Shown piece after piece: positions 997 to 32,603 of a DNA stretch of 36,723 nt. The stretch is from the IMG/VR virus record IMGVR_UViG_2851976983_000007; one strand, given 5' to 3'. A program made the translations under genes and the position numbers. Under the pieces are notes generated by a model that was not told where the DNA came from, did not search any database, and saw only the letters and a program-made list of their open reading frames with translations. Position 1 is the first letter of the stretch; each line of letters opens with the position of its first letter. This stretch comes from a virus (taxonomy: Duplodnaviria; Heunggongvirae; Uroviricota; Caudoviricetes).

Positions 997-1188
997 TACG
1001 TATCCTTATACCTGAAATCTTCGCAAGTATGCCTGGCCGCGAGATTATGGCACACTTGTCCGGTTAACTCTCGTCTCATACAGGTAACACAAACGTGAAA
1101 ATCCTTGTTGATGAAAAAAATGATGATTTAATTTATTGATATAAAAGGATTTATATCAGCACGTGTCCACGTAGTGACCACATTTTCG

Positions 1189-1262: not shown

Positions 1263-2155
1263 CTATTTCCAGTTACAAGCAGCTTGAAGTGGTTTTAGCG
1301 CGTTTGACAGGCCGTTTAAATTGAAAGTTGCACTTACAGGGCTCTCATTATAAGGAGTTATTTTTGTATACATTTTGTTTGAGTTGGCTAGTTTTCGGAT
1401 GAAATCAATGTCATTACCTTTATAAAAAACAGCCTTTGTATCTGTAGATACTAGCCAGTTTCGCTCAACTGCTTTCTGTTTATCAAGACGATAAAGCATG
1501 CTGGTTTGTTCAAGGCCTAAATATACATCCCAACTAAGAAATACTTCGGTTTTCTTTTCTCGGCAAGCTATAAACAGAGTGGGAGTAACCGCTTCTCCAA
1601 ATGGAGTTCTGATATAATCATCACTTTCTAACGATAAAATTACATTTTTCGAATCATCAATTGGCGATGTAGTAATGGATGTGTGCCATTTTCCTACATC
1701 TGTGGCTTTCTCTAATTTTGATTCAGCTTGAACAGCTTTATCCTGTGGGAATAGTTTATCGTAGCAGTTTAGTCTGGCTTCTTTATCATTTTCTGCTCGG
1801 CATTTAGATATCTCAGAAAGATTTGGTTGCTGAGCCTCTGTTGTTACTGGCTTTTCCGTTTTAGATTTTGAGTTTACAGATGGAGTAAATGTTGGAGAAA
1901 AAAACGATCATAACAAGATAAACGTCTGTCATCATCTTTCTCATCAGGGCATTGATCTCTGCTTTCGAATTTTTCAGCAACTTTCGTTCGAGTCGGTTGT
2001 ATTGACTTATCGTAACAAGAAAGTCTGTCTTTATTATTTTCTATTGCTCGGCACTGGAGTACTGCATTGAAGTTATTATGTTCAGTTGCTGCGTGAACAG
2101 GCAGTACACTAATTGATATAAATGATGCACCTATAGAAAAAATTATATTTTTCAT
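1263..2155 (-). pseudogene. Secreted Cys-repeat protein gene, reading frame broken at an A7 (minus-strand T7) homopolymer near 1898-1904; N-terminal part 1874-2155 carries a signal peptide, C-terminal part continues in another frame to 1263
   Basis: ORF 1874..2155 starts MKNIIFSIGASFISISVLPVHA; my manual translation shows the 1263..1499 frame is open upstream to a stop at about 1908 with no ATG; motif C-R-A-x-E-N-x-K-x-R-L-x-C-Y-D-K occurs three times across both frames; one extra T would fuse them. Confidence 0.5.
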
Positions 2156-2159
2156 TTTG

Positions 2160-2492
2160 TTATCCTTTTGGTTTAGTAAGAAATACTAAAATTCCGATAA
2201 TGATATCGCCAATAACCCATAAACTTCCAATGGTAATTAAACCTAAGCCTGTACCAATAACTGCACCGGCTTTTTCGGCATCGGATGTAGCATTATTTAT
2301 TATTTCACTAGTGCCTCCCAGTCCAACTAAAAGCGTATAGATCATAAAAATATTAAATAATATAAATATCCACTTAATGAGCTTTCCAAAAAATGAACGC
2401 TTAAGTTTTTTTATTTGTTTACCGCAAGCAGGGCAATACAATGCTGAATCGCTCACCTCTTTCTGGCATTCAGGACATTTGATTAATGCCAT
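2160..2492 (-). CDS. Zinc-ribbon (CPECx13CPACG) membrane protein, function unknown
   Basis: 110-aa ORF; N-terminal CxxC...CxxC followed by two hydrophobic helices; strong SD AAGGAGG about 9 nt upstream of ATG; low GC. Confidence 0.55.
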   Translation of the reverse strand: MALIKCPECQKEVSDSALYCPACGKQIKKLKRSFFGKLIKWIFILFNIFMIYTLLVGLGGTSEIINNATSDAEKAGAVIGTGLGLITIGSLWVIGDIIIGILVFLTKPKG

Positions 2493-2753
2493 GTAATCCG
2501 CCTCCTTTGGATCAATACGAGTTGATATTTGTTACAAAACATTTTGATTTTATCAGATTTTTTTTTATTGATAAGTGTCAATTGATTAGCTGGTATAGAG
2601 TGAGACATATAGAAGGGCAGATCTGTATCAGTAGTGATGCAAAAATCCCACAGTTTCATGGAATTTTTGCATTTAGAGCCGTGAGATAGGGTGCCTTATC
2701 GACCTTACCCTGGCAACCGATTGACGGGGGATTACTCCCCCGTCGCGGTTTCC

Positions 2754-2894
2754 TTACTGCTTACACTGTAAGAACGCCGCAAACTCCGCTCCCCAGAAAC
2801 TCATCCGTATTTCGCACAGCGAACCGTGCAACATCCAGATGATGAGGATTACCGTCACGCAGAACGTGATGGCTGTAAGCGATTTTTGCGACAT
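2754..2894 (-). CDS. Hok/Gef-family type I toxin-like small membrane peptide (46 aa)
   Basis: Manual translation MSQKSLTAITFCVTVILIIWMLHGSLCEIRMSFWGAEFAAFLQCKQ: TM helix then SLCEIR...AAFLxC pattern as in HokA/HokC; AGGAG upstream; GC-rich hairpin GACGGGGGA-GTAA-TCCCCCGTC just downstream (about 2717-2738); below the 60-aa cutoff of the ORF track. Confidence 0.6.
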   Translation of the reverse strand: MSQKSLTAITFCVTVILIIWMLHGSLCEIRMSFWGAEFAAFLQCKQ

Positions 2895-3084
2895 AGCACT
2901 TGCTCCTTTTCCGGAGAGGCGCTAACCTTTCACTTGCTTAGGGTAGACGGTTAGGGCCTCGGTTAAACAAAAGTGTTTTCCGGGGCCTTTCCACATCTGG
3001 CCTTCGGGTATTCCCTCCGACCATCAGCCGAAAGGCACCCGCGCGTAATCTATCGCTTTTTTGTTACTCCGGCAATTCTGCTTG

Positions 3085-3345
3085 TTAATTCTGAGGTAAA
3101 GGCAAACTCATCTGATTGTTTCCCCTGTGTGAAGCTGGTAGCTCATGCCACGGGATACCTTCTGAAGAGTGAACGCCGGAGGCGTGTTTCGATGTGAATT
3201 TATGGAAAGCTTCCAGTGTTGAGAAGCATACGCCGCATTCCAGATTGTTACACTGGTAATACTTTTGCCGCACGGTGTTTGAATCATTTTCCGGACGACT
3301 TGTGCGGATACGGGCAGATGCGCCACAAAGCGGACAACGGAACAT
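3085..3345 (-). CDS. ogr: Ogr-like zinc-finger late-gene transcription activator
   Basis: MFRCPLCGASARIRTSR...YYQCNNLECG resembles P2 Ogr MFHCPLC...HQCQNVNC; strong SD AGGGAGG; located beside D as in P2. Confidence 0.8.
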   Translation of the reverse strand: MFRCPLCGASARIRTSRPENDSNTVRQKYYQCNNLECGVCFSTLEAFHKFTSKHASGVHSSEGIPWHELPASHRGNNQMSLPLPQN

Positions 3346-3536: not shown

Positions 3537-4559
3537 ATGGGAAGAGATATAACGCTGTACCCTAAAAAAGCAACTAGAAACGAACTTAAAAATTACCTTG
3601 AAAATTTAGGTTTTAAAAGGTGTAAACATTTGTGGGAATGGCCCCAAGGAACGTTGAATTACTCTTGGTTTGATGATACGGACTTCAAATCTACAGATGG
3701 AGTTTCGGCTGATATATATCCTGTTTCAAATGACGAATTACACATATCTGGTAATAAATGGGCATTGCATGTGCGTAATTTATATAGCGCTAGTTGGCAT
3801 GATGTAAAAATGCTTAATGATGTTCTAAAAGGCGCAAGGAGTCTTTTTGGTGGAACACTTATAGGTGATTATGGGAAAAATAGGTACGCTCCTCTATGGA
3901 AGGATTCTAGTAGTCCGATCAGTCGTGGCATTTCTTCAATATTTAATCATGTCCATCATGAGATTTCCGCTGTTAAACATGCCTTACCTGAACCTTCTAT
4001 TAAATTAAACCTACCGGAAGATGGCGGCTTATCCGAATACTTTGATTACATGCAATGTATGGATCCCAGTAGAGTTATATATAATGGATTAGTACCTTTT
4101 GCGGTTGCTATGTTTGAATACTTTTTCTCTAGAGCTTTTCAAATACTTATAAAGTACGATCCTTTCGCAATAGCAAAAAGAACATCGTATAAGCAAAAAG
4201 TTGATTTTGATATTCTGCTTGAGATAGAGAAAGGAAATATTTCAATAGAAAGTGTTATTGCAAGAAATTACACTTTTCAAAACTTAACCCACCTAAACAA
4301 AGCATATAAAGAGTGGCTGGATATAGATGTGAGAGCGATTCTTTATAAGAAAAAAAGAATTGGAAAATCAGTTGATTTTCTTGAGAATCGAATTTCTGAA
4401 ATCATACAATATAGACATGGGATAGTTCATCACTTTGAGTTGGATAGGACCTTAAATCGGGATGGATATATTCATATATTAGATGCGATAGAAAAAAGCA
4501 TAATTGAATTTATCCATTACATAGAAGGCAAATACAAATTTAAATTAAATGCGTATTAA
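3537..4559 (+). CDS. Low-GC cargo protein (340 aa), unknown function; C-terminal helical region with R-x4-H (QYRHGIVHH) suggests a HEPN-like domain; candidate abortive-infection/defence gene
   Basis: Strongly AT-rich ORF inserted between ogr and D on the opposite strand; own AT-rich upstream region with short direct repeats (GTGAAAATT x2, AATAGTT x2) and a downstream hairpin; no ATPase or nuclease motif I can recognise. Confidence 0.7.
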   Translation: MGRDITLYPKKATRNELKNYLENLGFKRCKHLWEWPQGTLNYSWFDDTDFKSTDGVSADIYPVSNDELHISGNKWALHVRNLYSASWHDVKMLNDVLKGARSLFGGTLIGDYGKNRYAPLWKDSSSPISRGISSIFNHVHHEISAVKHALPEPSIKLNLPEDGGLSEYFDYMQCMDPSRVIYNGLVPFAVAMFEYFFSRAFQILIKYDPFAIAKRTSYKQKVDFDILLEIEKGNISIESVIARNYTFQNLTHLNKAYKEWLDIDVRAILYKKKRIGKSVDFLENRISEIIQYRHGIVHHFELDRTLNRDGYIHILDAIEKSIIEFIHYIEGKYKFKLNAY

Positions 4560-27237: not shown

Positions 27238-27431
27238 AATGCCGCGCAATTATCTTGTCGCTCACAATGCGAACGATCTTACAAAAAGGCACATTACTGT
27301 CAAGATAATTGATCGTTTTAATCGATAGATAATAGACAATCTATTTGTTTAACAGATCGATTATTGAAGTAAGTGTGCCAAGTGGAATGATACTGTCTCT
27401 ATAAACGTGAGCATTTTTCGCGCAGATGCTT

Positions 27432-27743
27432 TTACTCAGGAAATAACGCCCGGATATTCCCAGCCATCTGGCTGGTTATCTTAGCCACTGGTGCAGACTG
27501 TGCTTCAAACTTTTTTGAGCTGATTTGTGTCACAGGTAACATCTCATCATCAGCCCATGCGGCCAGTCGGTAAGCCTCTGCCGGATTCGTCTTCAGAAGT
27601 GCCAGCCCGGCCAGAAAAGCCACGCGTTGGCCGCTTTTGCGGGCTTCTGGTGTAAGGCTGTCCAGCCAGGCGCATGCTTCTCCTTCGTTCTTGACGGCAG
27701 CTGGCTTCAGATAGAAACTTATCCGTCTGGTTGGTGTTGTCAT
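27432..27743 (-). CDS. parR: ParR-like centromere-binding protein (type II partition adaptor)
   Basis: ISFYLKPAAVKNEGEACAWLDSLTPEARKSGQRVAFLAGLALLKTNP parallels R1 ParR IAFKLNPDVNQTDKIVCDTLDSIPQGERSRLNRAALTAGLALYRQNP; AAGGAG SD; start 5 nt after the parM-like stop; track ORF extends to 27878. Confidence 0.75.
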   Translation of the reverse strand: MTTPTRRISFYLKPAAVKNEGEACAWLDSLTPEARKSGQRVAFLAGLALLKTNPAEAYRLAAWADDEMLPVTQISSKKFEAQSAPVAKITSQMAGNIRALFPE

Positions 27744-27747
27744 TGGT

Positions 27748-28707
27748 TTACTCCTTGTCCATTGCGTACAGCCCATTAACCAGAGCAAACTGTGGCACCC
27801 CGTCCGCGATGAAAGTCGCATTAACTCCGCAGGCTTCGCGGATAGCGGGTGCCACAATCTCCGCCCCGCCACCGACAACCATCACCCGCCCGTAACCCGA
27901 AAAACCCGCCAGCGCGCGGATCACGCGTTGTTTCAGTGTTTCTTCCTTTTCACGAATAACCGCCATCAGGCTGTCGTAATGCGCGTCATTGTGGATGTGC
28001 TGGCGCAGCCAGGCTTCATCATGGCGATGTTCGATAATGGTATTGGCGATGTGGTGACTGGTACGCATACCGTTAGTGGCCATCACCGACAGTACGGCAT
28101 CGGCCATCAGGGAAACGCCTACGTGTGGATCGCAAAACACCTGGCTGATACCTGCCAGTTGTCCCTGAACCTTTGCCACATCCAGCGTGGTTCCGCCTAA
28201 ATCCACAATCAGCAGGGATTCAAACGGACTCATGTCAGCCAGTGCTTTAAAGCCAGCCGGAATGGATTCAGGCATAACCCGTACGTTACGGATAGTGAAT
28301 GCTTCGCCGTTCTGGTACTCCACCGGGCGCATGACGTTCGCTTTTTTGCGGTTGATGTTGGCCATGTCCGGCTGTGCGTTTGTGTCGAAATATTCGCTCA
28401 GTGGCAGGGTGACAACCACATCCACTTCCTGTGGTGTGATGCCTGATTTGACCAGCGCGTGATGAATGGCAATGACATTCACATCGCTGTACTGGTATTG
28501 CGTGTCGGTCGTCTGGACAAAGCGATCGCTGACCGGATCAAAACCATAGCGCACGCCATCAAGCATGTAGTTCGCGGGCTGCGTGCCACCGAACGGCGCA
28601 GACCATTCCGACTTGAAGCTGTTCGGGCTGATGGCGTTGCGGCGTTCGCCGTTCTCAGTCCATGCCAGCTTGATGTTGGTGGAGCCGTCATCGATACAAA
28701 TTTTCAT
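27748..28707 (-). CDS. parM: ParM/StbA-like actin-family ATPase (type II partition NTPase)
   Basis: MKICIDDGSTNIKLAW...YSDVNVIAIHHAL...VMPESIPAGF...LLIVDLGGTTLDV...GYGRVMVVGGGAE matches R1 ParM along its length. Confidence 0.9.
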   Translation of the reverse strand: MKICIDDGSTNIKLAWTENGERRNAISPNSFKSEWSAPFGGTQPANYMLDGVRYGFDPVSDRFVQTTDTQYQYSDVNVIAIHHALVKSGITPQEVDVVVTLPLSEYFDTNAQPDMANINRKKANVMRPVEYQNGEAFTIRNVRVMPESIPAGFKALADMSPFESLLIVDLGGTTLDVAKVQGQLAGISQVFCDPHVGVSLMADAVLSVMATNGMRTSHHIANTIIEHRHDEAWLRQHIHNDAHYDSLMAVIREKEETLKQRVIRALAGFSGYGRVMVVGGGAEIVAPAIREACGVNATFIADGVPQFALVNGLYAMDKE

Positions 28708-32281: not shown

Positions 32282-32603
32282 GGTGTGGCCCCTTGTGTAG
32301 TAAGTTGTGAAAACTCACCATCCAGAGCTGCGAAACTGTGGGTGGCGAGACGTACGAGGTTCGCAGTACCGGCTACACAAGAACCCGGCCCGACCGAAGT
32401 CGGCCCCGTACGCCCCGCCATAATTCTGACGCGAAAAAAACGTGGCAATACAGTACGCACAAAAAAACCGCTGGCGCGGTTGTGCGCTTGTGTAGTCAGC
32501 AGGCTGCGAAACCCGGCACCCGTTTTGTGAGGTGCAGCGGAAATGTAACCTGACTGATTGCGGCATGGCAAGCGGTTTTTTTGTGTGTGCATGTTCTGGT
32601 TTC

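What the first reader, a model, noticed from the sequence alone, without database searches (positions are those of the whole stretch)
2700..3085. Unlisted Hok/Gef-like toxin ORF at the ogr-proximal prophage junction
A 46-aa minus-strand ORF with an N-terminal TM helix and the SLCEIR...AAFLxC signature of Hok-family toxins, with AGGAG upstream and a perfect 9-bp GC hairpin immediately downstream. It lies 190 bp from the ogr stop, which leaves little room for an attachment core. Either the toxin locus is phage-borne or the prophage boundary overlaps it.
Basis: partly seen in the sequence, partly recalled or inferred. Interest (0 to 1): 0.5.

Follow-up and report, generated by a model that had tools for sequence, protein, structure and literature searches.

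The report
Phage-borne Hok toxin module beside ogr
The 46-codon ORF is a real Hok-family membrane toxin with its antisense-RNA control region, carried inside a P2-like prophage next to the ogr gene; it is already annotated and common in E. coli, so the finding is correct but ordinary.

Summary
The ORF at 2754..2894 (-) is real and is a Hok/Gef toxin: Pfam HOK_GEF 30.1 bits against a cut-off of 22, and PHROG 251 at E=2.5e-23. It lies in a roughly 400-nt hok mRNA unit. That unit has its own promoter, a 5'-3' locking helix (3040-3032 with 2697-2689), a 3' GC hairpin, and a Sok-like antisense gene inferred by homology at 2936..2996 (+).

It is not at the prophage junction. The 20-bp attachment core, the 5' end of pdxB, is at 1098..1117, so hok lies about 1.6 kb inside the element. 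Phage records with an internal attP configuration carry the same int-attP-cargo-hok-ogr order, so the toxin is phage-borne.

RefSeq already names the exact protein "Hok/Gef family protein". The module occurs in 1585 of 5426 complete E. coli genomes and is contiguous with ogr in 1178. The peptide is catalogued in a 2025-26 preprint, which reports a 45/46-identical peptide as toxic.

One departure from the textbook system is that no mok frame exists here or in 18 relatives. Folding suggests that Sok controls the hok ribosome-binding site directly. This is inference only.

Verdict: already known, low interest.

The parts
1098..1117 (.). Attachment core copy (flk-side junction of the prophage): AAAATCCTTGTTGATGAAAA, the 5' end of the pdxB coding sequence
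   Evidence: It is identical to the K-12 empty site and to the int-side junction in strain B7A (L002 11330-11349). It is the only copy in the window at up to 3 mismatches, with 0 expected by chance. It is also internal to phage Chuche, between int and the cargo (L008 2768-2787).
1263..2492 (-). Variable cargo between hok and att: a TagO-like gene (1263..2155, frameshifted here) and a zinc-ribbon membrane protein (2160..2492)
   Evidence: Pfam VasI and Zn_Ribbon_1 hits. The B7A annotation shows an intact 297-aa TagO. A 1-nt deletion in the window copy was found. Other cargo replaces these genes in related phages.
2637..2672 (-). Terminator-like hairpin at the likely 3' end of the full-length hok mRNA. 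It looks like a degenerate version of the canonical terminator seen in relatives.
   Evidence: The family alignment shows relatives with CCCGCAGCGTAAAAACTGCGGGTTTTCTTTTT at this position. The window has ATGCAAAAATTCC...GGGATTTTTGCAT instead. This reading comes from the sequence and is not confirmed.
2689..2697 (-). fbi element (AAGGCACCC), which pairs with the mRNA 5' end
   Evidence: Inverted repeat I3: 9 nt, 100% complementary, arms 334 nt apart. It closes the minimum-free-energy fold of the 356-nt RNA (-160.1 kcal/mol, z=-8.0). The helix is kept in the consensus fold of 18 relatives, with compensatory changes at 3031/2699, 3030/2700 and 3029/2701.
2723..2744 (-). Conserved 3'-UTR GC hairpin. 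No U-tract follows it on the hok strand. Its inferred role is a stop for 3' trimming.
   Evidence: Covariation supports it: pair 2741/2726 is GC in 13 and CG in 5 sequences, and pair 2737/2730 is GC in 15 and AU in 3. The trimming role is inferred from what is known of R1 hok.
2754..2894 (-). hok coding sequence, 46 aa
   Evidence: The exact peptide is in the catalogue of preprint 10.1101/2025.08.07.668861. The tested clones 72_1621 (45/46 identical) and 72_1589 are not among the three non-toxic clones that the preprint names.
2895..2927 (-). hok ribosome-binding region: SD AAGGAG at 2908-2903, with the anti-SD strand GCGCCUCU (2922-2915). The anti-SD strand is also the 3' arm of the Sok-target hairpin.
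   Evidence: Consensus pairs 2923-2915 with 2895-2906. The alternative hairpin GAGGCCCUAACC / GGUUAGCGCCUC is repeat I1 and appears in the truncated fold.
2900..2928 (+). Predicted Sok promoter: -35 TTGCTC (2900-2905), 17-nt spacer, -10 TAACCT (2923-2928)
   Evidence: The -10 hexamer is TAACCT or TATCCT in all 18 relatives, at the same position as the promoter region upstream of the annotated sokB 5' end in K-12. It matches only 6 of 12 consensus positions and was not flagged by the generic promoter scan.
2936..2996 (+). Predicted Sok-like antisense RNA, about 61 nt
   Evidence: The annotated ends of both sokB and sokC in K-12 map through the alignment to 2936 and 2996. The sequence folds as a 13-nt single-stranded 5' tail plus one hairpin, -23.2 kcal/mol, z=-2.9. 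Expression was not tested.
2982..2991 (-). ucb-like box GAAAGGCCCC, the alternative partner of the 5' end after 3' trimming
   Evidence: Repeat I5. It pairs with the 5' end in the truncated fold. In the full-length consensus fold it pairs with CGAGGCC at 2961-2955.
3032..3040 (-). 5' end of the hok mRNA (tac element, GGGUGCCUU); +1 is inferred at 3040
   Evidence: Position 1 of Rfam model RF01794 aligns to 3040. Family homology starts just upstream, at the -10 hexamer.
3047..3075 (-). Predicted hok promoter: -35 TTGCCG (3075-3070), 17-nt spacer, -10 TAGATT (3052-3047). The -35 starts 9 nt after the ogr stop, and no terminator lies between them.
   Evidence: Read from the sequence. The -10 hexamer is conserved as TAGATT, TAGAAT or TAAATT in relatives. 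No terminator-like site was found between 3085 and 3040.
3085..3345 (-). ogr/Delta-type late activator gene of the P2-like prophage, the conserved upstream neighbour of hok
   Evidence: Pfam Ogr_Delta 52.4 bits. The ogr-hok pair is contiguous in 1178 of 5426 complete E. coli genomes. The same adjacency occurs in a Salmonella P2-like prophage whose Hok is 61% identical.

Best explanation
Window 3075..2637 (minus strand) is a complete hok/sok-type type I toxin-antitoxin module. A P2-like (Peduoviridae) prophage integrated into the 5' end of pdxB carries it as cargo, placed directly downstream of its ogr gene and about 1.6 kb inside the attachment site.

Proposed mechanism:
1. A promoter just after the ogr stop makes a hok mRNA of about 400 nt starting at 3040.
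2. The mRNA 5' end (GGGUGCCUU) pairs with the fbi box near the 3' end. This keeps the RNA closed, with the hok Shine-Dalgarno held in an anti-SD helix. The pairing is shown in silico and by covariation.
3. Slow 3' trimming back to the GC hairpin removes fbi, an inference from R1 hok.
4. The 5' end then switches to the ucb-like box, the GAGGCC...GGCGCCUC hairpin forms, and the anti-SD strand is drawn away from the SD. This is shown in silico.
5. A short antisense RNA of about 61 nt, read from the plus strand at 2936..2996, pairs with that leader. The RNA is inferred by homology with sokB and sokC.
6. Pairing would trigger RNase III decay and let the anti-SD helix reform, which is inferred.
7. 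When Sok is no longer made, Hok is translated and damages the inner membrane. This could follow loss of the prophage, shut-off of host transcription by another phage, or prophage induction.

Unlike R1 hok, hokB and hokC, this lineage has no mok leader frame. Control of the hok ribosome-binding site is therefore predicted to be direct.

The biological role is undecided among prophage addiction, exclusion of other phages, and help with lysis.
For: Identity of the protein:
- Pfam HOK_GEF scores above its gathering score.
- PHROG 251 matches at E=2.5e-23.
- RefSeq names the protein Hok/Gef.
- A 45/46-identical peptide was tested by overexpression and is not among the three clones named non-toxic in preprint 10.1101/2025.08.07.668861.

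RNA anatomy:
- The Rfam sok/hok-leader model spans 3040..2881 at E=1.6e-10.
- A 9-nt perfect 5'-3' complement exists.
- The full-length fold is -160.1 kcal/mol, z=-8.0, closed by a 15-bp terminal helix.
- The truncated RNA refolds as in the R1 model.
- The consensus fold of 18 relatives keeps these helices, with compensatory changes.

Antisense RNA:
- The annotated ends of sokB and sokC both map to 2936 and 2996.
- The -10 hexamer is conserved in all 18 relatives.
- The predicted RNA has a 5' tail plus one hairpin.

No mok:
- No start codon exists in any frame that crosses the hok start, and all three frames have stops between the Sok target and the SD.
- The mokB and mokC start codons align to 2944-2946, where the window reads CUACCCUAAG.

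Direct control:
- The energy needed to open the SD-to-AUG stretch averages 11.6 kcal/mol (full length), 7.6 (truncated) and 12.2 (truncated with the Sok site blocked). The truncated form is lowest in 18 of 18 relatives.
- In the mok-containing hokB control, the hok site stays closed (15.5, 13.3, 15.5) and the mok site opens instead (14.5 to 3.1).

Phage-borne:
- The att core is at 1098..1117 and next to int, and there is no other copy in the window.
- The K-12 flk-pdxB gap is only 98 bp.
- Records of phages Chuche and P88_4B11 hold int, cargo, hok and ogr internally, and the att core lies between int and the cargo in Chuche.
- A Salmonella P2-like prophage at a different site has U-D-ogr-hok with 61% Hok identity.
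- The ogr-hok pair is contiguous in 1178 of 5426 E. coli genomes.
Against: - No transcript data were available, so both promoters, the +1 site, the Sok RNA and the 3' trimming all rest on homology.
- The predicted Sok promoter matches only 6 of 12 consensus positions and was not reported by the generic scan.
- The Rfam match is below the family's gathering score (51.9 against 59 bits).
- In R1, mok translation up to the hok SD is mandatory (PMC9841398). A locus without mok could therefore be poorly translatable.
- In the thermodynamic model the SD is still mostly paired in the truncated form, with unpaired probability mostly below 0.2.
- The window copy has a degenerate terminator compared with its relatives.
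- The toxicity evidence comes from a preprint, on a peptide that differs by one residue, under overexpression.
Confidence: 0.85

Rival explanations
1. The locus is a decaying, non-functional hok relic, like hokC of K-12, which has an insertion sequence next to it. It is carried passively by the prophage. Hok is not translated because the mok leader that R1 needs has been lost.
For: - There is no mok start codon, and all three upstream frames carry stops.
- R1 requires mok translation up to the hok SD (PMC9841398).
- The SD stays largely paired in the folds.
- The terminator is degenerate in the window copy.
- In K-12, IS186A lies about 20 bp from the hokC stop.
Against: - The absence of mok is shared by all 18 diverged relatives, which are 61-98% identical in protein and come from E. 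coli, Salmonella, Citrobacter and Klebsiella. It is not a private lesion of this copy.
- Across the same relatives the Hok ORF, the SD, the promoter hexamers and the long-range helices are kept, with compensatory changes.
- The module is in 29% of complete E. coli genomes.
- Two peptides of this cluster were tested and are not among the three clones the preprint names as non-toxic.
- The hok ribosome-binding site is predicted to be much easier to open here than in hokB (7.6 against 13.3 kcal/mol).
Confidence: 0.1
2. hok is a host chromosomal locus of the flk-pdxB region, and the phage integrated beside or into it. The prophage boundary would then lie between hok and ogr.
For: Only 190 nt separate hok from ogr, and ogr is the last gene before attP in phage P2 itself (recalled from the P2 map, not tested here).
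Against: - The prophage-free K-12 site has only 98 bp between flk and pdxB and no hok.
- The 20-bp core repeat flanks the whole 1118-to-int segment.
- No core-like sequence lies between hok and ogr, even at up to 3 mismatches.
- Phage records carry hok on the phage side of attP.
- The ogr-hok linkage recurs at another integration site in Salmonella.
Confidence: 0.02
3. The module mainly serves the phage's own lytic cycle, as reported for hokW-sokW of Stx prophage Sp5. On induction, transcription running through from ogr crosses the Sok promoter head-on and silences Sok. Hok is then made and speeds membrane damage and phage release. Prophage addiction or defence would not be its main role.
For: - There is no terminator between ogr and hok, and the hok -35 hexamer starts 9 nt after the ogr stop.
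- In every phage context seen, the module sits at the far end of a late or tail region next to att: after ogr in P2-like phages, after lom in Stx phages, and after tail-fibre genes in a Salmonella prophage.
- For hokW-sokW, sokW RNA disappears on induction and phage release halves without the locus (PMC8621323).
Against: - hokW is a different Hok lineage: 51 aa, starting MKQQKAM.
- There are no expression data for this locus.
- The same module also sits on IncI/K and IncF plasmids and in Salmonella tandem arrays with no phage late operon upstream. This fits a general addiction module better.
Confidence: 0.25

Closest known systems
hok/sok of plasmid R1 (parB), the reference type I toxin-antitoxin system
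   Same: - Small Hok-family membrane toxin.
- mRNA of about 400 nt with a 5' tac element that pairs with a 3' fbi element.
- An alternative ucb-like partner for the 5' end after 3' trimming.
- A GC hairpin in the 3' UTR.
- A cis-antisense RNA of about 60 nt against the leader, with its promoter overlapping the hok SD and start region.
(the R1 mechanism as summarised in PMC9841398)
   Different: - There is no mok leader ORF, which is mandatory in R1.
- Hok is 46 aa rather than 52 aa, with a ...AEFAAFLQCKQ C-terminus instead of ...AAFMAYESGK.
- It is carried by a phage, not a plasmid.
- The hok ribosome-binding site is predicted to respond directly to the refolding.
hokB/sokB and hokC/sokC of E. 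coli K-12
   Same: The loci can be aligned over the whole mRNA. The annotated Sok ends map to 2936 and 2996 in the window. The GGGUGC 5' end and the GGCACCC fbi box of hokB match.
   Different: - K-12 has annotated mokB (a different frame from hokB) and mokC (in frame with hokC). Their start codons align to a stretch of the window with no start codon and a TAA stop.
- The hokB ribosome-binding site stays closed in all modelled states.
hokW-sokW of Stx2 prophage Sp5 (Takada et al. 2021, PMC8621323)
   Same: A hok/sok module carried by a functional temperate phage of E. coli, with a proposed role in the phage life cycle.
   Different: - It is a different Hok lineage: HokW is 51 aa and starts MKQQKAM (primers).
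- The 'MokW-like host killing' label on this protein in phage records is the PHROG 251 family name, not an identity.
- A separate module 82% identical to the window's sits next to lom in Shigella phage 75/02 Stx, and many Stx-converting phage records match at the same identity.
Hok 60%-identity cluster 72 in Escalera-Maurer et al. (bioRxiv 10.1101/2025.08.07.668861)
   Same: The exact window peptide is in the preprint's peptide alignment (sequence 1628). Cluster 72 is a high-abundance cluster. Clones 72_1621 (45/46 identical) and 72_1589 were tested and are not among the three non-toxic clones. [quoted passage not shown]
   Different: The preprint explicitly did not analyse mok, Sok or the mRNA elements. 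Searches of its main text found no mention of ogr, P2-like phages or Peduoviridae.

Membership tests
Hok/Gef toxin family (Pfam PF01848) | Protein profile match above the curated cut-off | tested here: met
   HOK_GEF 30.1 bits against a gathering score of 22, E=3.7e-7, residues 7-44 on profile positions 5-42 of 42. PHROG 251 E=2.5e-23. The NCBIfam HokA equivalog (35.8 against 89 bits) and Hok subfamily (23.6 against 73 bits) score below their cut-offs, so it is not HokA itself.
Hok/Gef toxin family (Pfam PF01848) | About 50 aa, with an N-terminal hydrophobic helix followed by the conserved (S/D)LCE motif | tested here: met
   46 aa. Residues 6-22 (LTAITFCVTVILIIWML) are hydrophobic. C27 is invariant and S25, L26 and E28 are at least 90% conserved in 26 relatives.
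Hok/Gef toxin family (Pfam PF01848) | Toxic to the cell when expressed | not testable with these tools
   Published only for close relatives. Clones 72_1621 (one residue different) and 72_1589 were tested, and only 19_179, 60_1482 and 69_1540 are named as non-toxic.
[quoted passage not shown] | Leader matches the Rfam covariance model RF01794 | tested here: inconclusive
   51.9 bits and E=1.6e-10 over the full model (positions 1-157) at 3040..2881, but below the gathering score of 59. It was not reported at the gathering threshold.
[quoted passage not shown] | Long-range pairing of the mRNA 5' end (tac) with a 3' element (fbi) | tested here: met
   9-nt perfect complement. A 15-bp closing helix in the minimum-free-energy fold, z=-8.0. 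The helix is kept in the consensus fold of 18 sequences, with two-sided changes in three consecutive pairs.
[quoted passage not shown] | Alternative fold after removal of the 3' end (5' end pairs with ucb; the antisense-target hairpin forms) | tested here: met
   Shown in silico only. The truncated RNA pairs 3040-3030 with 2991-2982 and forms the GAGGCC...GGCGCCUC hairpin.
[quoted passage not shown] | Cis-encoded antisense Sok RNA with its own promoter, complementary to the leader | tested here: inconclusive
   Homology is good: the sokB and sokC ends map to 2936 and 2996, the -10 TAACCT or TATCCT is present in 18 of 18 relatives, and the fold is a tail plus a hairpin. Against this, the promoter matches only 6 of 12 consensus positions, the generic scan did not flag it, and there are no transcript data.
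[quoted passage not shown] | Overlapping mok leader ORF whose translation is coupled to hok | tested here: not met
   No ATG, GTG or TTG occurs in any frame that runs across the hok start. Stops lie at 2940-2938, 2932-2930 and 2924-2922. No start is conserved in the 18 relatives.
Cargo (moron) of a P2-like temperate phage | Lies between the two att core copies of the integrated element | tested here: met
   Core at 1098..1117 and next to int (L002 11330-11349). The empty site in K-12 holds a single copy.
Cargo (moron) of a P2-like temperate phage | Present in the circularised or packaged phage genome, on the phage side of attP | tested here: met
   Chuche has int, the att core, com/mom-like genes, hok, ogr and D, all internal to a 34.5-kb record. 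P88_4B11 has int, cargo, hok, ogr and D internal to a 37.1-kb record. The excised form of this particular prophage was not examined.

The most novel reading that the evidence does not exclude
This abundant Hok lineage (46 aa, cluster 72) may be a hok/sok variant that naturally lacks mok. In this reading the antisense RNA does not block a leader ORF. Instead it decides whether an anti-SD strand pairs with the hok Shine-Dalgarno or with the target hairpin. Its fixed position directly after ogr, with no terminator between, would link Hok release to the late phase of P2-like phages. No paper in the searched library describes either point, and the recent Hok survey states that it left mok and Sok unanalysed.
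Probability: 0.35. Interest if true: 0.45.

Novelty: already known. Interest (0 to 1): 0.2.

Why it matters
As a finding it mainly corrects the map. The prophage ends at the pdxB core at 1098..1117, not after ogr, and hok plus the TagO-like and zinc-ribbon genes are phage cargo.

Two wider points follow.
- A toxin-antitoxin module is contiguous with the late activator gene ogr in about a fifth of complete E. coli genomes (1178 of 5426). This ogr-proximal arm of P2-like phages also holds variable cargo.
- If the lack of mok is confirmed, this would be a natural hok system that works without the leader ORF that is mandatory in R1. That would give a simple comparison for studying how Sok-type RNAs control translation.

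Tried and rejected
- Rfam at gathering thresholds found no hok/sok RNA anywhere in the window. Only the permissive search showed the sub-threshold match.
- The generic sigma-70 and terminator scan did not report either promoter proposed here. Its only terminator-like site is the GC hairpin, read on the wrong strand.
- I looked for mok in all three frames, including near-cognate starts, a 3-codon GUG-AAA-GGU-UAG mini-ORF and an upstream ATG at 3024. None is conserved in the relatives.
- I first took the 'MokW-like' label to mean this is hokW. The hokW paper's primers show a different 51-aa protein.
- The record 'Escherichia phage 500465-2' (100% match) cannot serve as evidence for packaging. 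It is a prophage cut-out that includes flk, yfcJ, fabB and mnmC.
The genome-contig scan with an alignment returned only 7 loci, and the two 100%-identical ones carry labels from unrelated taxa, probably contamination.
- The unpaired probability of the SD gave only a weak signal. Opening energy was more informative.
- PADLOC has no model that hits Hok or its neighbours.
Full report
**Observation.**
The window is E. coli chromosome and is 100% identical to several complete genomes over the region. On the minus strand, 2754..2894 encodes MSQKSLTAITFCVTVILIIWMLHGSLCEIRMSFWGAEFAAFLQCKQ. AAGGAG lies 8 nt upstream of the ATG. A perfect 9-bp GC hairpin sits at 2723-2744. The ogr ORF is at 3085..3345 (Pfam Ogr_Delta 52.4 bits), 190 nt from the hok ATG.

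The ORF scores 30.1 bits on Pfam HOK_GEF against a cut-off of 22 (E=3.7e-7). It scores E=2.5e-23 on PHROG 251.

It is not unannotated in public data. RefSeq calls it 'Hok/Gef family protein' (WP_000078920.1), and the exact sequence is seen on at least 1000 contigs.

**Where the prophage ends.**
In K-12, flk and pdxB are divergent and only 98 bp apart. The window follows the K-12 sequence from flk up to GTGAAAATCCTTGTTGATGAAAA and then diverges at 1118. In strain B7A, which carries the same prophage, the sequence after int rejoins pdxB through the same 20 bases, AAAATCCTTGTTGATGAAAA.

This core occurs once in the window, at 1098..1117, even when 3 mismatches are allowed, with 0 expected by chance. 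The integrated element therefore runs from 1118 to beyond the window end, which lies inside int. The hok locus is about 1.6 kb inside it, together with a zinc-ribbon membrane protein gene (2160..2492) and a TagO-like gene (1263..2155).

**Phage-borne or not.**
The 395-bp locus is 95-97% identical in phages Chuche, P88_4B11 and PhiR44_2, and 94-95% identical in phiSM and P88.

- In Chuche the order is int, the same att core, com/mom-like genes, hok, ogr, D. All of this is internal to the record.
- In P88_4B11 the order is int, TagO-like, zinc-ribbon, three small genes, hok, ogr, D, again internal to the record.

An att site flanked by int on one side and cargo-hok-ogr on the other is the attP arrangement of the circular or packaged genome. 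This shows that hok belongs to the phage.

The cargo between hok and attP differs from phage to phage, while the hok-ogr joint is constant. A Salmonella P2-like prophage inserted next to ihfA-pheT has U-D-ogr-hok with a Hok only 61% identical.

In complete E. coli genomes the module is present in 1585 of 5426. It is contiguous with ogr in 1178. The 100% match to 'phage 500465-2' was discarded as evidence because that record is a prophage cut-out that includes host genes.

**Anatomy of the locus.**
Alignment with relatives and with K-12 hokB and hokC shows that homology begins at a -10 hexamer (TAGATT, 3052-3047; -35 TTGCCG, 3075-3070). It ends a few bases after AAGGCACCC at 2697-2689.

- The Rfam model RF01794 aligns from its first position at 3040 to 2881, on the hok strand. 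It scores 51.9 bits and E=1.6e-10, below the gathering score of 59.
- The first nine bases of the RNA (GGGUGCCUU) are perfectly complementary to 2697-2689.
- The 356-nt RNA folds to -160.1 kcal/mol (z=-8.0) and is closed by a 15-bp terminal helix.
- In a consensus fold of 18 distinct relatives the terminal helix is kept. Three consecutive pairs change on both sides: UA/CG, CG/GC and GC/AU.
- The GC hairpin also shows compensatory changes.
- When the last 35 nt are removed, the 5' end pairs instead with GAAAGGCCCC (2991-2982), and the hairpin GAGGCCCUAACC...GGUUAGCGCCUC forms.

This is the tac/fbi/ucb logic described for R1 hok, as summarised in PMC9841398.

**Antisense RNA.**
K-12 has annotated sokB and sokC genes. 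Through the alignment, both 5' ends map to window 2936 and both 3' ends map to 2996 on the plus strand.

Upstream lie TTGCTC (2900-2905), 17 nt, then TAACCT (2923-2928). The -10 hexamer is TAACCT or TATCCT in all 18 relatives. The predicted 61-nt RNA has a 13-nt free 5' tail and one hairpin. The leader segment opposite that tail is the most variable part of the locus.

The promoter is weak by consensus (6 of 12 positions) and was not picked up by the generic scan. Expression is untested.

**No mok.**
In R1, mok translation up to the hok SD is required. Here no frame that crosses the hok start has an ATG, GTG or TTG. All three frames carry stop codons between the Sok target and the SD.

The mokB and mokC start codons align to 2944-2946, where the window reads CUACCCUAAG. 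Across the 18 relatives no start is conserved. The lack of mok is therefore a trait of this 46-aa lineage, not a lesion in this copy.

I modelled the energy needed to open the SD-to-AUG stretch.

| RNA state | Mean opening energy (kcal/mol) |
|---|---|
| Full length | 11.6 |
| 3'-truncated | 7.6 |
| 3'-truncated with the Sok site blocked | 12.2 |

The truncated form is the easiest to open in 18 of 18 relatives. In the hokB control the hok site stays closed (15.5, 13.3, 15.5) and the mok site opens instead (14.5 to 3.1).

This fits direct control through an anti-SD strand (2922-2915) that is shared between the SD and the target hairpin. It is a thermodynamic inference only. The SD is still mostly paired in the truncated ensemble.

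**What is known already.**
A recent survey (bioRxiv 10.1101/2025.08.07.668861) lists this exact peptide. It places it in a high-abundance cluster (72) and tested two cluster members, one of which differs from the window peptide by a single residue. Neither is among the three clones it names as non-toxic.

[quoted passage not shown] It states that it did not analyse mok, Sok or the mRNA.

hokW-sokW of Stx prophage Sp5 is a functional type I system that aids phage release (PMC8621323). However, HokW is a different 51-aa protein. The 'MokW-like' label in phage records is only the PHROG family name. A separate copy 82% identical to the window's module sits next to lom in Shigella phage 75/02 Stx, and many Stx-converting phage records match at the same identity. 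The module is also on an IncI/K plasmid next to trbA, on ETEC IncF plasmids, and in triple tandem arrays in Salmonella.

**Function.**
The shown parts are the family membership, the RNA architecture (in silico plus covariation) and the phage-borne location. The inferred parts are the transcripts, the 3' trimming, the action of Sok and the trigger.

The role could be addiction to the prophage, killing of cells whose transcription is shut off by another phage, or help with lysis. The last is suggested by the lack of any terminator between ogr and hok and by the module's place at the far end of late regions. None of these roles was tested.

**Verdict.**

The element is already annotated, catalogued and very common, so interest is low. 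The one point that may be new is the mok-less regulatory layout of this lineage and its fixed linkage to ogr.

Noticed in passing
window 3537..4559 (+): A 340-aa ORF sits between ogr and gpD. Related phages (PhiR44_2, P88_4B11, Chuche) have ogr directly next to D, so this is extra cargo. It has a weak Pfam HEPN_RiboL-PSP hit (E=1.2e-4, below the cut-off) and no PADLOC, PHROG or NCBIfam hit. It may be an uncharacterised defence gene.
   Followed up: partly
window 1263..2155 (-): The TagO-like gene differs from the intact 297-aa gene of strain B7A by a single missing T in a T-run. This splits it into 93-aa and 78-aa ORFs. It is either a frameshift pseudogene or a homopolymer sequencing error.
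   Followed up: yes
window 1095..1117 and L002 11290..11350: The phage integrates into the first codons of pdxB. The int-side end of the phage supplies AAGGAG, 7 nt, then a TTG start and seven new codons in frame with pdxB, so the gene probably stays functional in lysogens. RefSeq annotates the B7A pdxB from a downstream ATG instead.
   Followed up: partly
window 32338..32425 (-) and 32461..32535 (-): Rfam hits above the gathering score: C4 antisense RNA (83.2 bits) and isrK (64.1 bits). They lie side by side in the early region of the prophage.
   Followed up: no
about window 27400..28700 (-), by correspondence with B7A record 2705855..2707130 (L002 1856..3131): ParM-like and 'plasmid partitioning/stability' genes lie between the portal gene and the replication endonuclease gene of this P2-like prophage, according to the B7A annotation.
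   Followed up: no
L027 2501..3987 and L028 2501..3643 (Salmonella enterica): Three copies of this hok module lie in tandem, 460-710 bp apart, next to a DUF4875 gene and away from any phage genes in the stretch fetched.
   Followed up: no
L015 (Planococcaceae MAG contig), L016 (Vagococcus sp. contig), L019 (Xanthomonas pisi contig): The 100%-identical (L015, L016) and 74%-identical (L019) Hok matches sit in assemblies labelled as unrelated taxa. L015 also holds the pdxB att core. This is most likely enterobacterial contamination of those assemblies.
   Followed up: no
L001 3843..4540 (strain B7A): In B7A an IS1A element lies between flk and the att core, outside the prophage. It is absent from the window.
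   Followed up: no
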